The notes beneath the pieces are model-generated. The model was not told where the DNA came from and made no database searches. It was given only the letters and a program-made list of their open reading frames with translations. This document shows, piece by piece, positions 1-26,156 of a stretch of 32,858 nt of DNA. The translations under genes and the position numbers were made by a program. How positions within the stretch are numbered: the first letter of the stretch is position 1; each line of letters starts with the position of its first letter. The stretch lies in IMG/VR virus record IMGVR_UViG_2802429238_000001. One strand, 5' to 3'. The DNA is from a virus. Its lineage: Duplodnaviria > Heunggongvirae > Uroviricota > Caudoviricetes.

Positions 1-126
1 GATATCCAGCAGGCGAAAGATTATGCGCCAAGCCATTTCCTGCTCTACGTGCGGTATTCCGCCGCCGGATGGCAGGGCGACATGGATTTACCGCCGCAGC
101 CGCTGATACCTTACGCCGACTGGTAA
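1..126 (+). CDS. 3' end of a host chromosomal gene (partial; N-terminus outside window)
   Basis: Frame 1 is open from the window edge to TAA at 124-126 (..PLIPYADW*). No family recognised; identity not established. Confidence 0.4.
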   Translation, partial: DIQQAKDYAPSHFLLYVRYSAAGWQGDMDLPPQPLIPYADW

Positions 127-167
127 CGAGGTAGAATCAGAAGGTTAAATCTCGGAAATTAAGTCTA

Positions 168-205
168 GTAAATCAGCGTCGAGCATGTTCTCAACGCTGA
201 TTTAC
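168..205. terminator. Hairpin between convergent genes, probable bidirectional terminator
   Basis: Perfect 12-bp inverted repeat GTAAATCAGCGT (168-179) / ACGCTGATTTAC (194-205) with a 14-nt loop, lying between the + strand host gene stop and the pflA stop on the minus strand. Confidence 0.5.
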
Positions 206-248
206 TCATTACTACTAAAGGAAGGGACCCAGGTCGAAATATGATGTT

Positions 249-1046
249 TTAGAACATCACCTTATGACCATATTGCTCAAGAATCCCTTTTACGCGCTCC
301 ATGGTTTCTTTTTTCGGTGGTTTCACACCGTCGAGTTTGTACTCTTCGCCCATCGCCACCCACTTATGTTTGCCTAACTCATGGTAGGGGAGGAGCTCGA
401 TTTTTTCGACGTTACCCATATCGCGAGTAAATTCACCGAGGCGATGAGCTGAATCGTCATCGTCAGACCAGCCAGGTACTACGACATAACGTATCCAGAC
501 TTTCACATTTTTGTTCGCCAGATATTTAGCAAACTCGAGTGTACGATGGTTGGAAACGCCCACCAGATTCTGGTGGATTTCGTCGTTCATCTGTTTGAGA
601 TCAAGCATTACCAGGTCGGTCACTTCCAGCAGTTCATCAATTACTGGATCGTAACGACGAACAAAACCGTTAGTGTCGAGACAGGTATGAATGCCTTCTT
701 TTTTGCAGGCGCGGAACCAGTCGCGAACGAACTCGGCTTGCAGGATTGCTTCACCACCGGATGCGGTAACGCCGCCGCCGGAAGCGTTCATAAAGTGGCG
801 ATAGGTCACCACTTCCTTCATTAAATCTTCAACGGTAACTTCTTTACCGCCATGCGTGTCCCAGGTGTCGCGGTTATGACAATACAGGCAGCGCATCAGG
901 CAGCCCTGGAAAAAGGTGATAAAGCGAATACCTGGACCGTCTACGGTTCCACAGGATTCAAAGGAGTGAATGCGACCAATAACTGACTTGGTAGCTCCCG
1001 CCGCAGCGGTATTTTCTGTTGTATTACAATTAGTTAAATTACTCAT
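249..1046 (-). CDS. pflA: Pyruvate formate-lyase activating enzyme (radical SAM, CxxxCxxC = CLYCHNRD motif region), with a 19-codon N-terminal extension
   Basis: 265-aa ORF; residues 21-265 read as the PflA sequence as I recall it ([22 protein letters not shown]...HKVMF). The codon at the position I recall as Met1 (987-989) is AAG (Lys), so the only in-frame ATG is at 1044-1046. Start assignment uncertain. Confidence 0.85.
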
Positions 1047-1077
1047 ATCGCTTCAATTGGCTCTAGTTAACTCTGGT
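1047..1077. other. Probable attL junction region between pflA start and integrase stop
   Basis: 31-bp spacer between the pflA ATG and the int stop codon. Contains the 8-bp palindrome AGTTAACT (1065-1072), and TAGTTAA occurs twice (1031-1037 and 1064-1070). Core cannot be delimited without attR or attP. Confidence 0.3.
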
Positions 1078-2073
1078 TTATGGACGCATTATGGACATTC
1101 CTGACACCGGGTTAAGAGTCACAGCATCTTGTAAGAAATCCGGTGCAAAGTGTGCGTAGGTCATAGTTTGCTGAATGTTAGAATGACCCAGGATGCGCTG
1201 CAATGTGATTATGTTACCTCCATTCATTATAAAATGTGTGGCAAATGTATGCCTCAAAACATGCACTGCCTGTCCGTCAGGTAAATCGGGTTTTACTTCC
1301 CTGAGAGCGTTGCGCACTTTGTAGTAACTGGCATTAAAAAGCCTGCCTGAATTTTTGGTCTTGATCCGTTTAATCAAGTCCGGCGAAACGGGAATTGTCC
1401 TGCGCTTTCCGTTTTTAGTTTTCATAAACGTAACCATCTGGTTAATGATGTGTTCAGCTTTTAAATTAGACACTTCACTCCAGCGTCCACCAGTAGAAAG
1501 GCAGACCAGAGTCGCATTTAATTCATCACCATCAAGCATGGATAACAGCCGCGTAATCTCTTCACTGGACAAAAAAGCCATTTCCGTAACAGCTTCACGT
1601 AACCGCTTAACCTCACGGAACGGGTTGTGAGAGTGGTATTCACCGGCGTCAATTAATTTGGTGAACATCCCGCTCATTATTGCCAGATGCCGATTTACGC
1701 TGGCTGGTTTTAGACCATCGTTCATCATTACAACGCGATAATCAGTTATCGTTTTCTTTGTTAGCTGGTCAGCTCTGGATACTCCCATTTCTGCAAATTT
1801 GGCGATTATTGTCGTCAAACGCCCCCGTTCAATATCTCCACGCTCATGTGATTTTCCGTGATATATCCACCATCTGCCTAACAACTCTGTAAGAGTTCGG
1901 CGGTCGGCTGGCTTCTCCAACCACTCTTTGTTGTGGTAGTTAACCAGTACATGACGTTCGAATGCTTGAGCTTCACCCTTAGTTTTAAATTTCCGCCTGA
2001 TACGTTTTCCATCTGTACCCTGCGGTCTGACGTCCACTTCATAACGACCATCATCGAGCTTTTTAATAGACAT
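1078..2073 (-). CDS. int: Tyrosine integrase, P2 Int family
   Basis: 331 aa, MSIKKLDDGRYEVDV.. N-terminus and C-terminal catalytic region (HVLRHTFATHF..ITLQRILGH..YAHF) typical of P2-type integrases; GGAGGG RBS 4 nt upstream of ATG; position at the prophage left end. Confidence 0.92.
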   Translation of the reverse strand: MSIKKLDDGRYEVDVRPQGTDGKRIRRKFKTKGEAQAFERHVLVNYHNKEWLEKPADRRTLTELLGRWWIYHGKSHERGDIERGRLTTIIAKFAEMGVSRADQLTKKTITDYRVVMMNDGLKPASVNRHLAIMSGMFTKLIDAGEYHSHNPFREVKRLREAVTEMAFLSSEEITRLLSMLDGDELNATLVCLSTGGRWSEVSNLKAEHIINQMVTFMKTKNGKRRTIPVSPDLIKRIKTKNSGRLFNASYYKVRNALREVKPDLPDGQAVHVLRHTFATHFIMNGGNIITLQRILGHSNIQQTMTYAHFAPDFLQDAVTLNPVSGMSIMRP

Positions 2074-19983: not shown

Positions 19984-20428
19984 GTTTAAGCGTTTTGAAG
20001 ACCGGCTGACCGGACTGATTGAATCGCTGTCACCGTCAGGGCGTCGGCGACTGAGCGCCGAACTGGCGAAACGTCTGCGGCAGAGTCAGCAGCGTCGGGT
20101 GATGGCTCAGAAAGCCCCGGACGGCACACCCTACGCGCCACGCCAGCAGCAGAGCGCCAGAAAAAAGACTGGTCGTGTTAAGCGAAAAATGTTTGCGAAA
20201 CTTATCACCAGTCGTTTTTTGCATATCCGCGCCAGCCCGGAACAGGCATCAATGGAGTTTTACGGCGGAAAGTCACCGAAAATCGCCAGTGTGCATCAGT
20301 TCGGTCTGTCGGAAGAAAACCGGAAAGACGGTAAGAAAATTGATTATCCGGCGCGTCCCCTGCTCGGCTTTACCGGTGAGGATGTGCAGATGATTGAAGA
20401 GATTATTCTGGCGCACCTCGACCGTTAG
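19976..20428 (+). CDS. S: Tail completion protein, P2 gpS family
   Basis: 150 aa; overlaps the R end; synteny. Confidence 0.85.
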   Translation: MNEFKRFEDRLTGLIESLSPSGRRRLSAELAKRLRQSQQRRVMAQKAPDGTPYAPRQQQSARKKTGRVKRKMFAKLITSRFLHIRASPEQASMEFYGGKSPKIASVHQFGLSEENRKDGKKIDYPARPLLGFTGEDVQMIEEIILAHLDR

Positions 20429-20494
20429 TTGTGCCATTCCCGACACCTCATCGTCACATTGCCGCCGGTATGACCCGGCGGCATCCTTCCCGTT
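20429..20494 (+). promoter_or_regulatory. Intergenic region upstream of V (expected late promoter PV) with a 9-bp-stem hairpin
   Basis: TGCCGCCGG (20460-20468) / CCGGCGGCA (20475-20483) inverted repeat 12 nt upstream of the V ATG; no T-run follows. Confidence 0.4.
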
Positions 20495-21130
20495 ATGAAC
20501 ACTCTCGCAAATATTCAGGAACTCGCGCGCGCACTGCGCAACATGATCCGCACCGGCATTATCGTCGAAACCGACCTTAACGCCGGTCGCTGCCGTGTGC
20601 AGACCGGCGGCATGTGCACCGACTGGCTTCAGTGGCTAACCCATCGCGCCGGACGTTCGCGCACATGGTGGGCACCTTCCGTGGGGGAACAGGTGCTGAT
20701 TCTGGCCGTGGGCGGTGAACTCGACACTGCGTTCGTTCTGCCGGGGATTTATTCCGGCGATAACCCCGCACCGTCGGCGTCGGCGGATGCCCTGCATATC
20801 CGTTTCCCTGACGGGGCGGTGATTGAGTATGAACCTGAAACCAGTGCACTCACGGTAAGCGGAATTAAAACGGCCAGCGTGACGGCTTCTGATTCTGTTA
20901 CTGCCACGGTGCCGGTGGTCATGGTGAAAGCATCAACCCGCGTCACCCTGGACACACCGGAGGTGGTCTGCACCAACAGGCTGATTACCGGCACGCTGGA
21001 AGTGCAGAAGGGCGGGACGATGCGCGGCAACATTGAACATACCGGTGGTGAACTCTCATCAAACGGGAAGGTACTGCATACCCATAAACACCCCGGCGAC
21101 AGCGGCGGCACAACCGGGAGTCCTCTATGA
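20495..21130 (+). CDS. V: Baseplate central spike, P2 gpV family
   Basis: 211 aa, same size as P2 V; synteny. Confidence 0.88.
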   Translation: MNTLANIQELARALRNMIRTGIIVETDLNAGRCRVQTGGMCTDWLQWLTHRAGRSRTWWAPSVGEQVLILAVGGELDTAFVLPGIYSGDNPAPSASADALHIRFPDGAVIEYEPETSALTVSGIKTASVTASDSVTATVPVVMVKASTRVTLDTPEVVCTNRLITGTLEVQKGGTMRGNIEHTGGELSSNGKVLHTHKHPGDSGGTTGSPL

Positions 21131-21474
21131 CAGCGCGTTATCTCGGAATGAATCGCAGTGATGGCCTGACTGTCACTGACCTTGAGCATATCAGCCAGAG
21201 TATCGGCGATATCCTGCGCACACCGGTCGGCTCACGGGTGATGCGTCGTGATTACGGCTCGTTGCTGGCGTCAATGATTGACCAGCCGCAGACCCCGGCG
21301 CTTGAGTTGCAGATTAAGGTCGCCTGTTACATGGCGGTACTGAAATGGGAACCCCGCGTCACCCTGTCATCTGTCACCACGGCGCGCAGTTTTGACGGGC
21401 GAATGACGGTCACGTTAACCGGTCAGCACAACGACACCGGTCAGCCACTTTCGTTAACCATCCCTGTGAGTTGA
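21127..21474 (+). CDS. W: Baseplate wedge protein, P2 gpW family
   Basis: 115 aa; ATGA overlap with the V stop. Confidence 0.88.
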   Translation: MTARYLGMNRSDGLTVTDLEHISQSIGDILRTPVGSRVMRRDYGSLLASMIDQPQTPALELQIKVACYMAVLKWEPRVTLSSVTTARSFDGRMTVTLTGQHNDTGQPLSLTIPVS

Positions 21475-21478
21475 AACC

Positions 21479-22387
21479 ATGCCGATTATCGACCTGAACC
21501 AGCTACCCGCACCGGATGTGGTTGAGGAGCTGGACTTTGAAACCATTCTTGCCGAACGCAAGGCGACACTGATTTCCCTTTACCCGGAAGACCAGCAGGA
21601 GGCGGTCGCCCGTACCCTGACGCTGGAATCCGAGCCTCTCGTCAAACTGCTGGAGGAAAATGCTTATCGTGAGCTTATCTGGCGTCAGCGTGTGAATGAG
21701 GCCGCACGGGCAGTAATGCTGGCCTGTGCCGCCGGTAATGACCTTGATGTGATTGGTGCCAATTACAACACCACGCGCCTGATTATCACCCCGGCAGATG
21801 ATTCGACCATCCCGCCGACACCGGCAGTGATGGAGTCTGACACCGATTATCGGCTGCGTATTCAGCAGGCGTTTGAGGGCTTAAGCGTCGCCGGGTCGGT
21901 GGGAGCCTATCAGTATCATGGTCGCAGTGCCGACGGGCGTGTCGCGGATATCTCTGTCACCAGTCCGTCTCCGGCCTGCGTCACCATCTCTGTGCTGTCA
22001 CGTGAAAATAACGGCGTCGCATCCGAAGACCTGCTGGCGGTGGTGCGTAACGCCCTGAATGGCGAGGACGTCAGGCCGGTGGCCGACCGCGTGACCGTAC
22101 AGTCTGCCGCCATTGTTGAATACCAGATAAACGCCACGCTTTACCTTTACCCAGGCCCCGAAAGCGAACCCATCCGCGCTGCCGCCGTGAAAAAACTGGA
22201 AGCGTATATCACGGCACAGCACCGGCTGGGGCGCGACATCCGTCTGTCTGCCATTTATGCCGCTTTGCATGTGGAAGGTGTGCAGCGTGTCGAGCTGGCC
22301 GCACCACTGGCCGACATTGTGCTCAACAATACGCAGGCATCTTTCTGTACCGAATACCGCGTCGTGACCGGAGGCTCGGATGAGTGA
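21479..22387 (+). CDS. J: Baseplate wedge protein, P2 gpJ family
   Basis: 302 aa, same size as P2 J; synteny. Confidence 0.88.
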   Translation: MPIIDLNQLPAPDVVEELDFETILAERKATLISLYPEDQQEAVARTLTLESEPLVKLLEENAYRELIWRQRVNEAARAVMLACAAGNDLDVIGANYNTTRLIITPADDSTIPPTPAVMESDTDYRLRIQQAFEGLSVAGSVGAYQYHGRSADGRVADISVTSPSPACVTISVLSRENNGVASEDLLAVVRNALNGEDVRPVADRVTVQSAAIVEYQINATLYLYPGPESEPIRAAAVKKLEAYITAQHRLGRDIRLSAIYAALHVEGVQRVELAAPLADIVLNNTQASFCTEYRVVTGGSDE

Positions 22388-22910
22388 TTCGCGCCTGCTG
22401 CCGACCGGCTCATCACCGCTTGAAGTCGCCGCCGCAAAAGCTTGTGCGGAAATTGAAAAAACGCCGGTCAGTATTCGTGAGCTGTGGAACCCGGACACCT
22501 GCCCGGCAAATCTGCTGCCGTGGCTGGCGTGGGCGTTTTCGGTTGACCGCTGGGATGAAAAGTGGCCGGAAGCAACAAAACGCGCCGTTATCCGCGATGC
22601 CTATTTCATCCACTGTCATAAAGGCACTATCGGCGCAATCCGGCGTGTGGTGGAGCCGCTCGGCTATCTCATTAACGTAAAGGAATGGTGGGAGACAAAC
22701 GACCCGCCCGGAACCTTTCGCCTTGATATCGGTGTGCTGGAAAGCGGTATCACGGAGGAGATGTATCTGGAAATGGAACGGCTGATTGCCGATGCCAAAC
22801 CCGCAAGTCGCCACCTTATCGGTCTGAACATTATCCAGGACATTCCCGGCTATCTGTATACAGGCGGTGTGGTCTGTGATGGTGATGTTATTACTGTTTA
22901 TCCCGGATAA
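22380..22910 (+). CDS. I: Baseplate protein, P2 gpI family
   Basis: 176 aa; overlaps the J end; synteny. Confidence 0.88.
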   Translation: MSDSRLLPTGSSPLEVAAAKACAEIEKTPVSIRELWNPDTCPANLLPWLAWAFSVDRWDEKWPEATKRAVIRDAYFIHCHKGTIGAIRRVVEPLGYLINVKEWWETNDPPGTFRLDIGVLESGITEEMYLEMERLIADAKPASRHLIGLNIIQDIPGYLYTGGVVCDGDVITVYPG

Positions 22911-22920
22911 GTGAGAAACA

Positions 22921-25545
22921 ATGAGCACGAAATTTAAAACCGTTATCACTACTGCCGGAGCCGCAAAGCTGGCAGCCGCCACTGTCCCCGGCGGGAAAAA
23001 AGTAAACCTGTCTGCAATGGCCGTGGGTGACGGTAATGGCAAATTACCGGTGCCGGATGCCGGTCAGACGAAACTGGTGCATGAGGTCTGGCGTCACGCT
23101 CTGAATAAAGTCAGCGTGGATAACAAGAATAAAAACTATATCGTGGCTGAACTGGTTGTACCGCCCGAAGTGGGCGGCTTCTGGATGCGTGAGCTTGGTC
23201 TGTATGACGATGCCGGAACACTGATTGCGGTATCCAACATGGCAGAAAGCTATAAGCCAGAACTGGCTGAAGGCTCCGGACGTGCGCAGACCTGCCGCAT
23301 GGTTATTATTCTCAGCAACGTGGCGTCCGTTGAGCTGAGTATTGATGCCAGCACAGTGATGGCGACGCAGGATTACGTCGATGACAAAATCGCAGAGCAT
23401 GAGCAGTCCCGCCGCCATCCTGACGCCACGCTGACGGAAAAAGGCTTTACTCAGTTAAGCAGTGCAACAAACAGCACCAGTGAAAAGCTGGCGGCAACGC
23501 CAAAGGCAGTAAAAGCAGCCTATGACAATGCTGAAAAACGTATGCAGAAAGACCAGAACGGTGGCGATATTCCAGATAAGGGCGCTTTTCTGGACAATAT
23601 TGGCGTTACCAGCCTGACGTTTATGAAACACAATGGAATGATTCCAACCACTGACAATCTTGACTCCTATGGCCCAGAAGAAAAATATCTTGGAACGTGG
23701 TCATGTCCGTCACAATCCACTGCAAAACCAGAGTCTGGTTACCCTGAAGATAAAGGCAATGGGGTTCTGGAAGTATTCAATGCTGGTCGCTTTCACTGCA
23801 CACAACGCTACACCACCCGAACCGGTAATATTTACATTCGGATGCTTGATGCAGAATGGAACCCAGCCAGTCCAACATGGAGTGCATGGAGAGTTATTAC
23901 AAGCGGGACTCGACCATTAAGCACGTCAATTGACCTGAATTCTTTAGGTGGCGCGGAACACCTGGGAATATGGCGCAATAGCAGTACATCAATAGCCTCA
24001 TTTGAACGTCATTTCCCGGAGGACGGGAGCTTTGGTCAGGGTATTCTGGAAGTCTTTGAAGGCGGTCTGTATGGGAGAATGCAACGTTACACCACCCGTA
24101 GTGGGACTATGTACATTCGCGGACTGACTGCCTCATGGGATGCAGAGAATCCACAATGGGAGGACTGGATTGCTGTTGGGTATCAGTCCACGGGATGGAC
24201 TTATTCAGGGGATCTTGATGACCTTTTAAAGCCTGGTATTTATAGCGTCACGAAACAGGCCACAAATGCACCAGTCACCGACTCTAAAGATCTTGCTGTT
24301 GGCTCAATAGTTGAAGTGAAAAAACGTTGTGATATTGAATCGTATATCCAGACATATACGACAGTTTCTGCAACGGATGCCTATAAAAACCGGACATTTC
24401 AACGAACTCGTGCCAGCGGTGAAGCTGACTGGGGGGAATGGGCGGAAGTTTACAACTCAAAATCATTACTCACTAAATTAGGTGTCGGCGGTGTTACCGA
24501 CAGGTTATCCAGTCTGGACTGGCAGACCTACGACTTTGTGCCGGGCAGCATGATAACTGTCAGACTCTCCGATATGACCAATATCCCCGATGGGATGGAA
24601 TGGGGCGTCATTGATACTAACCTGATAAATATCACTGTTGGCCCCAGTGAAGGTGGAGGTGTCGCCCGTTCAATGCAGGTATGGCGCAGCACCTCAAACA
24701 AAACCAACTATCGTTTTTTTACAGTCCGCTTATATGGCAATCCTAGGGAGCGTAGCTTCAATATTCGTCGGCTACCAATTATCGACGAAGCCCAGACATG
24801 GGAGGCAAAACAGACATTCAGTGCAGGCCTTTCTGGTGAACTGTCCGGCAATGCGGCTACAGCTACAAAGCTGAAAACGGCAAGGACAATTAACGGCGTA
24901 AAATTTGACGGCTCGGCAAATATTGAAGCATTTCCGCCAGGTGTTCCGTTGCCGTGGCCATCAGATACACCACCTGCGGGCTATGCAATTATGCAGGGGC
25001 AGACGTTTGATAAGGCAGCATATCCGAAACTGGCTATAGCCTATCCTTCTGGTGTTATTCCAGATATGCGCGGCTGGACAATCAAGGGCAAACCCGCCAG
25101 TGGGCGTGCCGTATTGTCACAGGAACAGGACGGGATTAAATCGCATACTCACAGCGCCAGTGCGTCAAATACGGATTTGGGAACGAAAACAACCAGTTCG
25201 TTTGATTACGGGACGAAGACAGTCAGTACGTTTAACTACGGAACAAAAACCACTAATACCACTGGTAACCATACACATACCATTTACAGAGGGAATGCCA
25301 ATACTAATGGTGAAACCGGTAAAACAGGCTTTGACAACCCATCGTTTAATGGCACATCAGGAGCTGCCGGGAATCATGCCCACACGGTAGATATTGGCGC
25401 ACATAATCATACGGTTGGTATTGGTGCACATTCACACACGGTTGCTATTGGATCACACGGGCACTCTATTACCGTTAATGCTACAGGTAATACAGAAAAT
25501 ACCGTAAAAAACATTGCATTTAACTATATTGTGAGGCTTGCATAA
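22921..25545 (+). CDS. H: Tail fibre protein (gpH-type N-terminus with a divergent repeat-rich, His-rich C-terminal region)
   Basis: 874 aa, longer than P2 H as I recall it (about 669 aa). The N-terminal region ([25 protein letters not shown]..) matches gpH; the C-terminal half has tandem repeat units and HxH repeats. Confidence 0.88.
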
Positions 25546-26123
25546 TGGCTTTCAGAATGAGTGCAGAAGCACAAACTATCCACGTATTTAATTTACTTGA
25601 TGGAACCAATGAATTTATTGGGGAAAGTGACGCATATATCCCACCGTATACTGGCCTGCCTGCAAACAGTACAGATATTGCACCACCTGATATTCCTGCT
25701 GGTTATGCAGCCGTTTTCAATGCAGATGAAATGAAATGGGAACTGATGGAAGACCATCGCGGAAAGACTGTCTACGAAACGAAAACGGGAGCAGCCATTT
25801 ATATTTCTGAACTTGGCGTATTACCTCCAGACGTGACAGCTATTTCCCCTGAGGGGGATTATCAGAAATGGAACGGAAATGCGTGGGTGAATGATGAGAA
25901 TGCAGAGCGTGATGCACTTGTCAGAGCGGCGGAGTCTCAGAAGAAAGAGTTGATTGCATATGCAGGTGAAATTATTGCCACGCTGCAGGATGCTGTCGAT
26001 TTAGATATGGCTACCGAGGAAGAAAAGTTAAGCCTGACACACTGGAAAAAATACCGTGTGCTACTGAATCGCGTTCAGCCGGAAAATGCCCCGGATATTG
26101 AATGGCCGGAACTACCGCAATAA
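25545..26123 (+). CDS. G: Tail fibre assembly chaperone (Tfa/gpG family)
   Basis: 192 aa; TAATG overlap with the H stop; GAGG RBS; position immediately after the tail fibre gene. Confidence 0.8.
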
Positions 26124-26127
26124 ACAC

Positions 26128-26156
26128 AGGCGGGCTGATTGCCCGCCTTTTCTTTA
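26128..26156 (+). terminator. Rho-independent terminator after G
   Basis: AGGCGGGC (26128-26135) / GCCCGCCT (26141-26148) stem with a 5-nt loop, followed by TTTTCTTT. Confidence 0.75.

What the first reader, a model, noticed from the sequence alone, without database searches (positions are those of the whole stretch)
23600..25545. Mosaic tail fibre gene H: P2-type N-terminus fused to a repeat-containing, His-rich distal region
Seen in sequence: H is 874 aa. The N-terminal ~230 aa look like P2 gpH, but the distal part contains two clearly related ~70-80 aa units (..[41 protein letters not shown].. and ..[41 protein letters not shown]..) plus a probable third divergent copy (..[22 protein letters not shown]..). 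It ends in a tract of HxH repeats ([33 protein letters not shown]), which I recall as resembling the metal-binding motifs of T-even long tail fibre tips (from memory). The 3' half of H looks more AT-rich than the baseplate genes. Inference: the receptor-binding module was acquired by recombination, so host range probably differs from P2.
Basis: partly seen in the sequence, partly recalled or inferred. Interest (0 to 1): 0.5.

Follow-up and report, generated by a model that had tools for sequence, protein, structure and literature searches.

The report
Mosaic P2-type phage tail fibre
This is the tail fibre gene of a P2-like prophage, assembled by recombination from three known modules plus a matching chaperone gene; it is a clear but ordinary case of how phages swap host-recognition parts.

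Summary
H (22921..25545, 874 aa) has four parts.

- **P2-type N-terminus:** aa 1-207, 84% identical to P2 gpH.
- **Shaft:** aa ~226-640, with two clearly related ~80-aa units (z = 28.6), a divergent third copy supported only at profile level, and a conserved domain of unknown fold.
- **Linker motif:[23 protein letters not shown].
- **Tip:** a 205-aa collar-plus-needle with six HxH motifs. It matches the solved T4 gp37 tip (PDB 2XGF, E = 3e-76).

The repeated units are predicted knob-like domains, similar to R-pyocin fibre knobs. The shaft is 49% identical to T6 gp37 and 99.8% identical to the shaft of Yersinia phage L-413C.

The tip and the downstream chaperone G (65% identical to lambda Tfa) form a lambda Stf/Tfa-type cassette. 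Its closest relatives are phages Chuche, phiNP and STYP1.

Sharp DNA breakpoints and a fall in GC3 (0.65 to 0.38-0.44) show horizontal acquisition.

The mosaic is not new. Peduovirus P24A7b carries the same H at 98.7% aa identity, 20 of 5426 complete E. coli genomes hold H+G full length, and the exact protein is already in NCBI. The L-413C mosaic and the T4/lambda tip family are both published.

Verdict: a real, well-explained, ordinary feature of low interest. The receptor is unknown, but it is almost certainly not recognised by a P2-type tip.

The parts
22921..25545 (+). Gene H, tail fibre protein, 874 aa
   Evidence: ORF. PHROG tail fibre families, E down to 5.7e-251. Sits in the conserved V-W-J-I-H-G order of P2.
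22921..23373 (+). N-terminal baseplate-attachment domain, aa 1-151
   Evidence: Pfam PF12571 Phage_tail_fib, E = 3.9e-57, full profile length. 83.6% aa identity to P2 gpH over aa 1-207.
23428..23550 (+). One Phage_fiber_2 repeat, aa 170-210
   Evidence: Pfam PF03406, E = 2.4e-21. Matches the Mu tail fibre S, PDB 5YVQ/8JU3, E 2e-15 to 4.5e-17. Canonical P2 and STYP1 carry 2-3 copies.
23505..23583 (+). Left junction patch between the P2-type and shaft modules
   Evidence: 26 mismatches to L-413C lie in these 79 nt, inside an otherwise ~99.8% identical stretch. This patch is P24A7b-like. DNA homology to canonical P2 ends at 23526.
23647..23895 (+). Knob-like unit 1, aa 243-325
   Evidence: Related to unit 2: Smith-Waterman z = 28.6, hhalign 3.8e-30. 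AF2 pLDDT 80-88 with five strands.
23920..24174 (+). Knob-like unit 2, aa 334-418
24202..24453 (+). Knob-like unit 3 (divergent), aa 428-511
   Evidence: hhalign to unit 1 E = 1.3e-5 and to unit 2 E = 3e-4. Same five-strand pattern at ~90-residue offsets in the AF2 model. Not significant pairwise.
24466..24840 (+). Conserved shaft domain of unassigned fold, aa 516-640
   Evidence: Most nearly invariant columns of the homologue alignment fall here. No relation to the knob units. AF2 pLDDT 38-76, so no fold is claimed. No PDB sequence match.
24841..24915 (+). Linker motif [25 protein letters not shown], aa 641-665; right junction of the shaft
   Evidence: The crossover with L-413C lies here: mismatches cluster from 24879 and homology ends at 24893. 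In T6 gp37 the same motif precedes the shaft cassette (52% over 50 aa). Among shaft homologues three tail classes follow it: two tip types and a T-even gp37 continuation.
24928..25140 (+). Collar domain, aa 670-740, equivalent to T4 gp37 D10 residues 811-881
   Evidence: Pfam PF07484 Collar, E = 2.7e-10. 54/71 identical to T4 gp37 811-881. T4 domain limits are from PMC6957217.
25141..25491 (+). Needle (stem) with six HxH motifs: H742/744, H784/786, H819/821, H828/830, H837/839, H846/848
   Evidence: Aligned to T4 gp37 882-1009 of PDB 2XGF. Stem halves are 35/50 and 33/50 identical. Six of T4's seven HxH sites are kept and the H929/H931 site is absent. DNA tandem repeats at 25183-25250 and 25381-25451.
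25279..25368 (+). Variable distal tip loop, aa 787-816, the presumed receptor-contact region
   Evidence: Only 4/28 identical to the T4 tip subdomain 932-959, and shorter. Nearly identical to phage Chuche; different from phiNP, STYP1, lambda and T4.
25492..25542 (+). C-terminal strand returning to the collar, aa 858-874 ([17 protein letters not shown])
   Evidence: 17/17 identical to T4 gp37 1010-1026.
25545..26123 (+). Gene G, tail fibre assembly chaperone, 192 aa, lambda Tfa type
   Evidence: Pfam PF02413 Caudo_TAP, E = 3.9e-41. Identity: 65% to lambda Tfa full length, 79% to Chuche, 73% to phiNP, 28% to T4 gp38. Only aa 95-192 match P2 or L-413C G, at 40-41%. The start codon overlaps the H stop as TAATG, as in lambda, phiNP, STYP1 and P24A7b.
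26128..26148 (+). Terminator-like hairpin ending the V-G operon; right edge of the exchanged cassette
   Evidence: 8-bp stem with 7 GC pairs followed by a T-run. Homology to L-413C and P24A7b resumes at 26126/26129.

Best explanation
**What it is.** H encodes the trimeric tail fibre of a P2-like (Peduovirus) prophage. It is built from three modules of different ancestry.

1. *P2-family N-terminal domain plus one fibre repeat (aa 1-~207).* This docks the fibre to the P2-type baseplate.
2. *Shaft (aa ~226-640).* It is homologous to the N-proximal shaft of T2/T6-type gp37. It holds three tandem knob-like beta domains that arose by internal duplication, then a conserved domain of unknown fold.
3. 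*Collar-and-needle tip (aa ~669-874) of the T4 gp37 / lambda Stf family.* Three chains are expected to intertwine around six metal ions, each held by three copies of an HxH motif. A short variable loop (aa 787-816) at the far end contacts the host receptor.

**Chaperone.** The tip needs a cognate chaperone. Gene G, translationally coupled to H by a TAATG overlap, is a lambda Tfa-type protein that came in with the tip.

**How it arose.** Modules were joined by recombination at short conserved motifs: the fibre repeat on the left and the linker [20 protein letters not shown] on the right. The right end of the cassette sits at the operon terminator.

**Shown versus inferred.** Shown: homologies, breakpoints, composition shift, repeat significance and conservation of the HxH positions. 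Inferred from relatives: trimer formation, metal binding, chaperone dependence and receptor contact by the tip loop. The receptor is not known. It should match that of phage Chuche and differ from those of P2 and L-413C.
For: - **Identity of the gene:** Pfam and PHROG hits and P2 gene order.
- **Module 1:** 83.6% aa identity to P2 gpH over aa 1-207 only; DNA homology ends at 23526.
- **Module 2:**
  - 48.7% identity over 415 aa to T6 gp37 aa 105-517, and ~49% to many T-even gp37 proteins.
  - 99.8% aa identity to L-413C, with 2 mismatches in 1247 nt.
  - Internal repeat statistics.
  - AF2 model with pLDDT 75-88 over the knobs.
  - NCBI names many homologues 'pyocin knob domain-containing protein'.
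- **Module 3:**
  - PDB 2XGF E = 3.4e-76, with six of seven HxH sites conserved.
  - 59% identity to lambda orf-314, 88.8% to Chuche, 74.8% to phiNP and STYP1.
  - The family with its adjacent chaperone is described in PMC9659904.
- **Chaperone:**
- **Horizontal origin:**
  - GC3 is 0.64-0.66 in V/W/J and FI, against 0.44, 0.395 and 0.378 in shaft, tip and G.
  - Abrupt loss of homology to P2 at 23526 and to L-413C at 24893, resuming at 26126.
  - The same shaft is joined to P2-type or T4/lambda-type tips in different prophages.
  - The same tip sits on a different, one-knob shaft in STYP1 and Chuche.
Against: - No experiment was done or found for this protein. Trimerisation, iron binding, dependence on G and the receptor are all inferred from relatives.
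- The knob assignment rests on a monomer AF2 model of moderate overall confidence (mean pLDDT 69). A separate model of unit 2 alone was worse (68.5).
- No Pfam or NCBIfam model matches the knob units.
- The third knob is supported only at profile level, and its match to unit 2 is weak (39% probability).
- The domain at aa 516-640 has no assigned fold.
- The direction and order of the recombination events cannot be deduced from these comparisons.
Confidence: 0.85

Rival explanations
1. H diverged vertically within the P2 family. The differences from P2 reflect fast evolution of the distal fibre under host selection, with no module exchange.
For: Fibre tips evolve fast. The N-terminal part of H is itself only 74-81% identical to P2 at DNA level, while the neighbouring baseplate genes are 93-99% identical.
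Against: - Homology to P2 and to L-413C stops within a few bases rather than decaying.
- The shaft is 99.8% identical to L-413C while the adjoining tip shares nothing with it.
- The tip and G are closer to lambda, phiNP and T4 proteins than to P2 H and G.
- GC3 drops by 0.2-0.27 exactly over the shaft, tip and G.
Confidence: 0.03
2. Host specificity lies mainly in the knob array, as proposed for Knob2 of R-pyocin fibres. The needle tip then serves chiefly as a folding and trimerisation element or a secondary binder. On this view the phage would share its primary receptor, the LPS core, with L-413C.
For: - Buth et al. argue that Knob2 determines much of the pyocin killing spectrum and that knob-like domains bind saccharides (PMC6116203).
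- The shaft is nearly identical to that of L-413C, a phage with a distinctive host range.
- Related shafts vary (61-76% identity among prophages).
Against: - In T4 the receptor contacts map to the tip subdomain of the needle (PMC6957217).
- Across the T4/lambda tip family, divergence concentrates in the 30-70 aa tip insert and members use different receptors (PMC9659904).
- Here the tip loop is the most divergent segment (4/28 identical to T4).
- Exchange of tip plus chaperone as a unit across unrelated phages fits a specificity cassette.
Confidence: 0.1
3. The gene is a decaying prophage remnant. The repeats and His-rich tract are then non-functional leftovers.
For: The window is an integrated prophage beside host pflA. 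Many database homologues are partial sequences.
Against: - H and G are intact, and the whole V-W-J-I-H-G-FI-FII-T tail gene series is open.
- The identical 874-aa protein occurs on 11 contigs, and its 90%-identity cluster has 132 members in several Escherichia species.
- Every structural His of the needle aligned to T4 is kept apart from one site. That site is also absent in the short-tip relatives phiNP, Chuche and STYP1; phiNP forms functional phage particles and Chuche and STYP1 are deposited as complete phage genomes.
Confidence: 0.03

Closest known systems
Peduovirus P24A7b (Escherichia virus P2_4A7b, NC_049390) tail fibre protein YP_009877362 and assembly protein YP_009877363
   Same: Same 874-aa architecture end to end: 98.7% aa and 97.5% nt for H, 96.4% aa for G. 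Same H/G overlap.
   Different: About 3-4% nucleotide divergence in the shaft, where the window is instead almost identical to L-413C. P24A7b carries 1.4 kb with three small ORFs between G and the terminator; the window lacks this.
Yersinia phage L-413C gpH (NP_839867), the published four-part mosaic P2-type fibre (Garcia et al. 2008, as summarised in PMC7460101)
   Same: Identical architecture and nearly identical sequence for aa 1-~658: P2-type N-terminus plus the three-knob shaft. DNA identity is 97.3% over 20000-24893, with 2 mismatches in 23584-24830.
   Different: After the linker motif, L-413C continues with a 255-aa P2-H-type distal domain ending ...INGTWYNVAQV and uses a P2-type G. 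The window has the T4/lambda-type collar and needle with a lambda Tfa-type G. A 79-nt patch at the left junction also differs.
T4 gp37 receptor-binding tip (PDB 2XGF; Bartual et al. 2010) with chaperone gp38
   Same: Collar and needle are homologous (E = 3.4e-76, ~58% identity). Six HxH motifs sit at the positions of T4 iron sites. The last 17 residues are identical, and a chaperone gene lies immediately downstream.
   Different: One iron site (H929/H931) and most of the tip subdomain are missing or replaced (4/28 identical). There is an extra 10-aa YGTKT-type repeat, as in lambda. The chaperone is only 28% identical to gp38. The rest of T4 gp37 is unrelated to H.
Lambda side tail fibre Stf (orf-314 part) with Tfa, and the T4/lambda RBP family of Magaziner & Salmond 2022 (phiNP ORF6, SEN5 and others)
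   Same: - The last ~215 aa are conserved, with a variable insert and an adjacent 184-207-aa assembly protein.
- Tip identities: 59% to lambda, 74.8% to phiNP, 88.8% to Chuche.
- G identities: 65%, 73% and 79% respectively.
- Same TAATG-type gene overlap.
   Different: Lambda's tip insert is 41 aa longer and its needle has eight HxH motifs. The window belongs to the short six-HxH subgroup. The carrier phage is a P2-type myovirus, not a lambdoid siphovirus.
T2/T6-type gp37 shaft and R-pyocin fibre Knob domains (PDB 6CL5, 6CL6, 6CU2)
   Different: Sequence identity to pyocin knobs is only 13-18%. There are three knobs rather than two. The knobs are followed by an extra conserved domain and a needle tip rather than a lectin-like foot.

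Membership tests
P2-family (Peduovirus) tail fibre gpH | N-terminal Phage_tail_fib domain homologous to P2 gpH | tested here: met
   PF12571 E = 3.9e-57 over aa 1-151. 83.6% identity to P2 gpH aa 1-207.
P2-family (Peduovirus) tail fibre gpH | Position after baseplate genes V-W-J-I and before G and FI in a P2-like genome | tested here: met
   ORF order. The window is 96-97% identical to Peduovirus genomes.
P2-family (Peduovirus) tail fibre gpH | P2-H-type distal receptor-binding domain (C-terminus ...KYINGTWYNVAQV) with a P2-type G chaperone | tested here: not met
   No similarity to P2 H beyond aa 207. G matches P2 G only over aa 95-192, at 40%. The feature is present in L-413C. H is therefore a P2-family fibre by its attachment end only.
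T4 gp37 / lambda Stf receptor-binding tip family (Bartual 2010; Magaziner & Salmond 2022) | Homology over the last ~215 aa, including the collar domain and the conserved C-terminal strand | tested here: met
   2XGF E = 3.4e-76. PF07484. Collar 54/71 and last strand 17/17 identical.
T4 gp37 / lambda Stf receptor-binding tip family (Bartual 2010; Magaziner & Salmond 2022) | HxH motifs at the iron-binding positions of the needle | tested here: met
   Six of T4's seven HxH positions are conserved in the alignment. The same six occur in phiNP, Chuche and STYP1.
T4 gp37 / lambda Stf receptor-binding tip family (Bartual 2010; Magaziner & Salmond 2022) | Actual metal (Fe) coordination and an intertwined trimer | not testable with these tools
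   Needs purified protein or a solved structure. Only monomer prediction was available.
T4 gp37 / lambda Stf receptor-binding tip family (Bartual 2010; Magaziner & Salmond 2022) | Variable 30-70 aa receptor-specific insert between conserved stem halves | tested here: met
   aa 787-816 is 4/28 identical to the T4 tip subdomain, while the stem halves are 66-70% identical. The insert varies among family members. The family description is in PMC9659904.
T4 gp37 / lambda Stf receptor-binding tip family (Bartual 2010; Magaziner & Salmond 2022) | gp38/Tfa-like assembly protein of 184-207 aa encoded immediately downstream | tested here: met
   G is 192 aa, PF02413 E = 3.9e-41. 65% identical to lambda Tfa and 28% to T4 gp38. 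Overlapping stop and start codons.
Knob-like fibre domains (R-pyocin Knob1/Knob2 type) | ~85-residue unit forming a five- or six-stranded antiparallel sheet, in tandem copies | tested here: met
   The AF2 model shows five strands per unit at ~90-residue offsets, pLDDT 75-88. This is a prediction, not a solved structure.
Knob-like fibre domains (R-pyocin Knob1/Knob2 type) | Structural similarity to solved pyocin fibre knobs | tested here: met
Knob-like fibre domains (R-pyocin Knob1/Knob2 type) | Match to a curated sequence model of the domain | tested here: inconclusive
   No Pfam or NCBIfam model matches the units. NCBI nevertheless names many close homologues 'pyocin knob domain-containing protein'. 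The model NCBI uses for that name is evidently not in the Pfam or NCBIfam libraries searched here.
T2/T6-type gp37 shaft cassette | Collinear homology to the N-proximal shaft of T2/T6-type gp37, bounded by the [13 protein letters not shown] linker motif | tested here: met
   48.7% identity over 415 aa (H 226-638 against T6 gp37 105-517). The linker is 52% identical over 50 aa, but lies upstream of the cassette in T6 and downstream in H.

The most novel reading that the evidence does not exclude
The fibre may be a two-site adhesin. The L-413C-identical knob array would bind an LPS-core saccharide, as L-413C is thought to do. The Chuche-type needle tip would bind a second receptor. Exchanging the tip alone would then re-target the phage while keeping a shared primary attachment. 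This would place part of L-413C's Yersinia pestis specificity in the shaft and make it transferable.
Probability: 0.12. Interest if true: 0.4.

Novelty: new member of a known kind. Interest (0 to 1): 0.15.

Why it matters
It adds little that is new. Mosaic tail fibres in P2-like phages, the L-413C hybrid H, the T4/lambda tip-plus-chaperone cassette and knob-like fibre domains are all published. The same gene is already present in a RefSeq phage and in many Escherichia genomes.

Its practical value is as a clean natural example of module boundaries for fibre engineering. There are three: the fibre repeat, the [13 protein letters not shown] linker, and the end of G at the terminator. The same shaft occurs with two tip types, and the same tip occurs on two shaft types. 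These natural chimeras therefore show which junctions tolerate exchange.

Tried and rejected
- **BLASTP self-search:** BLASTP of H against itself returned only the trivial hit. The repeat had to be shown by Smith-Waterman with shuffles and by profile comparison.
- **Curated domain models:** Pfam and NCBIfam scans of the separate units and of domain aa 516-640 found nothing meaningful.
- **PDB profile search:** a profile of the shaft alignment matched PDB entries only through the tips of the homologues, not through the shaft.
- **Single-unit model:** a second AF2 model of unit 2 alone was less confident (mean pLDDT 68.5) and had different strand boundaries from the same unit in the long model. 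I did not use it for fold searching.
- **Literature on P24A7b:** a paper search for P2_4A7b found nothing. A search for the 'His box' literature found no paper using that term in the held library, so the His-box recombination idea (Tetart et al., from memory) is not used as evidence.
- **Source genome:** the Escherichia ruysiae locus L007 was checked as a possible source but is only 96.5% identical and carries the P24A7b-type insert.
- **Chance or low complexity:** I considered this for the HxH tract and rejected it because of the residue-by-residue match to 2XGF.
Full report
**1. What the window is**

The window is an integrated P2-like (Peduovirus) prophage.
- The left end carries a host gene, pflA (249-1046, about 92% identical to the E. 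coli-derived pflA carried in some phage records). A P2-type integrase gene follows it.
- From 969 on, the sequence is 96-97% identical to Peduovirus P24A7b and other P2-like phages.
- The finding lies in the late V-W-J-I-H-G operon.

**2. Checking the observation**

- **ORF:** 22921..25545 encodes 874 aa.
- **P2-like part:** identity to canonical P2 gpH is 83.6% over aa 1-207 and absent thereafter. DNA homology to P2 stops at 23526.
- **Two clear repeats:** aa 246-323 and 337-416 align with a Smith-Waterman score of 170, against 27.3 +/- 5.0 for shuffles. That gives z = 28.6, with 0 of 500 shuffles reaching the score.
- **Third copy:** aa ~428-511 is not significant pairwise (z 1-1.9). With profiles built from homologues, unit 1 matches unit 2 at 3.8e-30, unit 1 matches unit 3 at 1.3e-5 (probability 81%), and unit 2 matches unit 3 at 3e-4 (probability 39%). 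None matches the next domain. The homologue consensus for unit 3 (LGILEV...QRYTT...W.EW) shows the shared motif more clearly than this protein does.
- **HxH motifs:** six motifs start at aa 742, 784, 819, 828, 837 and 846. The last four form a 27-nt DNA tandem repeat, and a 30-nt repeat encodes a duplicated YGTKT unit.
- **Composition:** GC3 is 0.64-0.66 in V, W and J, 0.58 in I, 0.56 in H aa 1-207, 0.44 in the shaft, 0.395 in the tip, 0.378 in G and 0.665 in FI (profile).

The only corrections are that the P2-like part ends near aa 207, and that the third copy needs profile-level evidence.

**3. Anatomy**

- **aa 1-151:** Phage_tail_fib domain, PF12571, E = 3.9e-57.
- **aa 170-210:** one Phage_fiber_2 repeat (PF03406). 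It also matches the Mu fibre S, PDB 5YVQ/8JU3.
- **aa ~226-640:** the shaft.
- **aa 641-665:** the linker motif [25 protein letters not shown].
- **aa ~669-874:** the collar and needle (PF07484 Collar; PDB 2XGF E = 3.4e-76).

*Tip in T4 terms.* I used the T4 domain limits given in PMC6957217.

| T4 gp37 region | Residues identical in H |
|---|---|
| Collar, 811-881 | 54/71 |
| Stem, N half (882-931) | 35/50 |
| Stem, C half (960-1009) | 33/50 |
| Last strand, 1010-1026 | 17/17 |
| Tip subdomain, 932-959 | 4/28 (and shorter in H) |

Six of the seven T4 HxH iron sites are conserved; H929/H931 is missing.

*Shaft fold.*
- An AF2 model built with 33 homologues gives pLDDT 75-88 across the three units. 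Each unit has five strands, at offsets of about 90 residues. Confidence is poor beyond aa ~515.
- Those four kinds of protein are the ones Buth et al. list as sharing the pyocin Knob fold (PMC6116203).
- NCBI labels many close homologues 'pyocin knob domain-containing protein'.
- No curated Pfam or NCBIfam model matches the units, and no solved structure matches the shaft by sequence.

**4. Origins of the modules**

*Shaft.*
- It is 48.7% identical over 415 aa to T6 gp37 aa 105-517, about 49% identical to many T-even gp37 proteins, and about 61% identical to other P2-like fibres.
- It is 99.8% identical to Yersinia phage L-413C gpH.
- At DNA level the window and L-413C differ at 2 positions in 23584-24830 and at 5 positions in 22630-23504. 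A 79-nt patch (23505-23583) holds 26 differences and is P24A7b-like.
- Homology ends at 24893, inside the linker motif. After the linker, L-413C continues with a P2-H-type distal domain.

*Tip.*
- Identity is 99.5% to P24A7b, 88.8% to phage Chuche, 74.8% to phiNP ORF6 and STYP1, and about 59% to lambda orf-314 and T4 gp37.
- The window, Chuche, phiNP and STYP1 form a short-tip subgroup with six HxH motifs. T4 has seven and lambda eight.
- The variable loop is nearly the same as in Chuche and different from the others.

*Chaperone G.*
- G (192 aa, PF02413) is 79% identical to the Chuche Tfa, 73% to phiNP, 65% to lambda Tfa and 28% to T4 gp38.
- It matches P2 or L-413C G only over its last 98 aa, at 40-41%.
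- H and G overlap as TAATG, as in lambda, phiNP, STYP1 and P24A7b. P2 and L-413C instead have a 3-nt gap.

*Boundaries and shuffling.*
- Homology to L-413C and P24A7b resumes at 26126/26129, at a terminator-like hairpin (26128-26148).
- Among database proteins sharing the shaft, 73 continue after the linker with a P2-H-type tip, 19 (including this one) with the T4/lambda-type tip, and 5 are T-even gp37 proteins.
- Conversely, STYP1 and Chuche carry this tip type on a short one-knob shaft.
- In T6 gp37 the linker motif lies upstream of the cassette rather than downstream.
- Together these results show module exchange at conserved motifs.

**5. How it most likely works**

By homology, H forms a trimer whose N-terminus docks on the P2-type baseplate. 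The knob shaft provides length and possibly accessory saccharide contacts. The needle folds around axial metal ions bound by HxH triplets, and the short loop at aa 787-816 contacts the receptor.

G is the cognate folding chaperone. T4 gp38 and lambda Tfa play this role, and PMC9659904 reports that lambda Tfa can functionally substitute for gp38. Members of this tip family use different receptors: LPS Glc-II for phiNP, and porins for T4 and the TuI phages. The receptor here therefore cannot be read from homology. It should match that of Chuche and differ from those of P2 and L-413C.

These functional steps are inferred, not shown.

**6. Comparison with what is known, and novelty**

- The L-413C fibre was already described as a hybrid of four regions with a P2-like N-terminal 207 aa (Garcia et al. 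2008, as summarised in PMC7460101).
- The T4/lambda tip family with its adjacent chaperone is described in PMC9659904. The iron-binding needle is covered in PMC6957217 and PMC6116203.
- The complete architecture exists in Peduovirus P24A7b (98.7% aa identity) and in 20 of 5426 complete E. coli genomes at about 97%.
- The identical protein is deposited as 'phage tail protein' from Escherichia. Its 90% cluster has 132 members, from E. coli, E. ruysiae and E. marmotae.

This is a further member of known kinds. No paper I found describes this particular three-module combination.

**7. Verdict**

Interest is low.

Noticed in passing
window 26124-26129 (G-FI intergenic region): The window has only ~130 nt between G and FI. 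P24A7b and an Escherichia ruysiae prophage carry a 1.4-kb insert with three small ORFs exactly between the G stop and the terminator. P2 has fun(Z) in this region and L-413C has another ORF. This is the known cargo hot spot, and it is empty here, as in STYP1.
   Followed up: partly
window 1-2073: The left end is host DNA. pflA (249-1046, minus strand) is only ~92% identical to the E. coli-derived pflA carried in some phage records. A P2-type integrase (1078-2073) follows it. The exact H protein is listed by NCBI under 'unclassified Escherichia', so the host is probably a cryptic Escherichia clade rather than E. coli proper.
   Followed up: partly
window 22695-23526: Against canonical P2, identity falls from 93-99% in V-W-J to 83.5% in the last 200 nt of gene I and to 74-81% in the N-terminal part of H. 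The fibre-attachment end of H and the end of baseplate gene I therefore vary together, which would fit a co-adapted I-H contact.
   Followed up: no
loci L017-L026 and L075 (genome-contig scan): Identical 59% matches to H aa 167-874 occur in assemblies of unrelated bacteria (Pseudomonas, Shewanella, Neobacillus, Paenibacillus, Kitasatospora and others). Most of these contigs have low read coverage (about 1-10x) and three are about 48.4-48.5 kb. This looks like phage lambda DNA (stf) contaminating those assemblies. P2-like H genes in 'Chryseobacterium' and 'Vagococcus' assemblies (L012, L014) are probably enterobacterial contamination too.
   Followed up: no
locus L089 3118-3987 (phage Chuche): In phage Chuche an extra 289-aa ORF sits between the tail fibre gene and the tail fibre assembly gene. 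This differs from the direct H/G overlap in the window.
   Followed up: no
window 25183-25250: A 30-nt tandem duplication encodes [10 protein letters not shown] / [10 protein letters not shown] in the proximal stem. It is shared with lambda, phiNP, Chuche and STYP1 but is single in T4. It is a small length polymorphism of the needle.
   Followed up: partly
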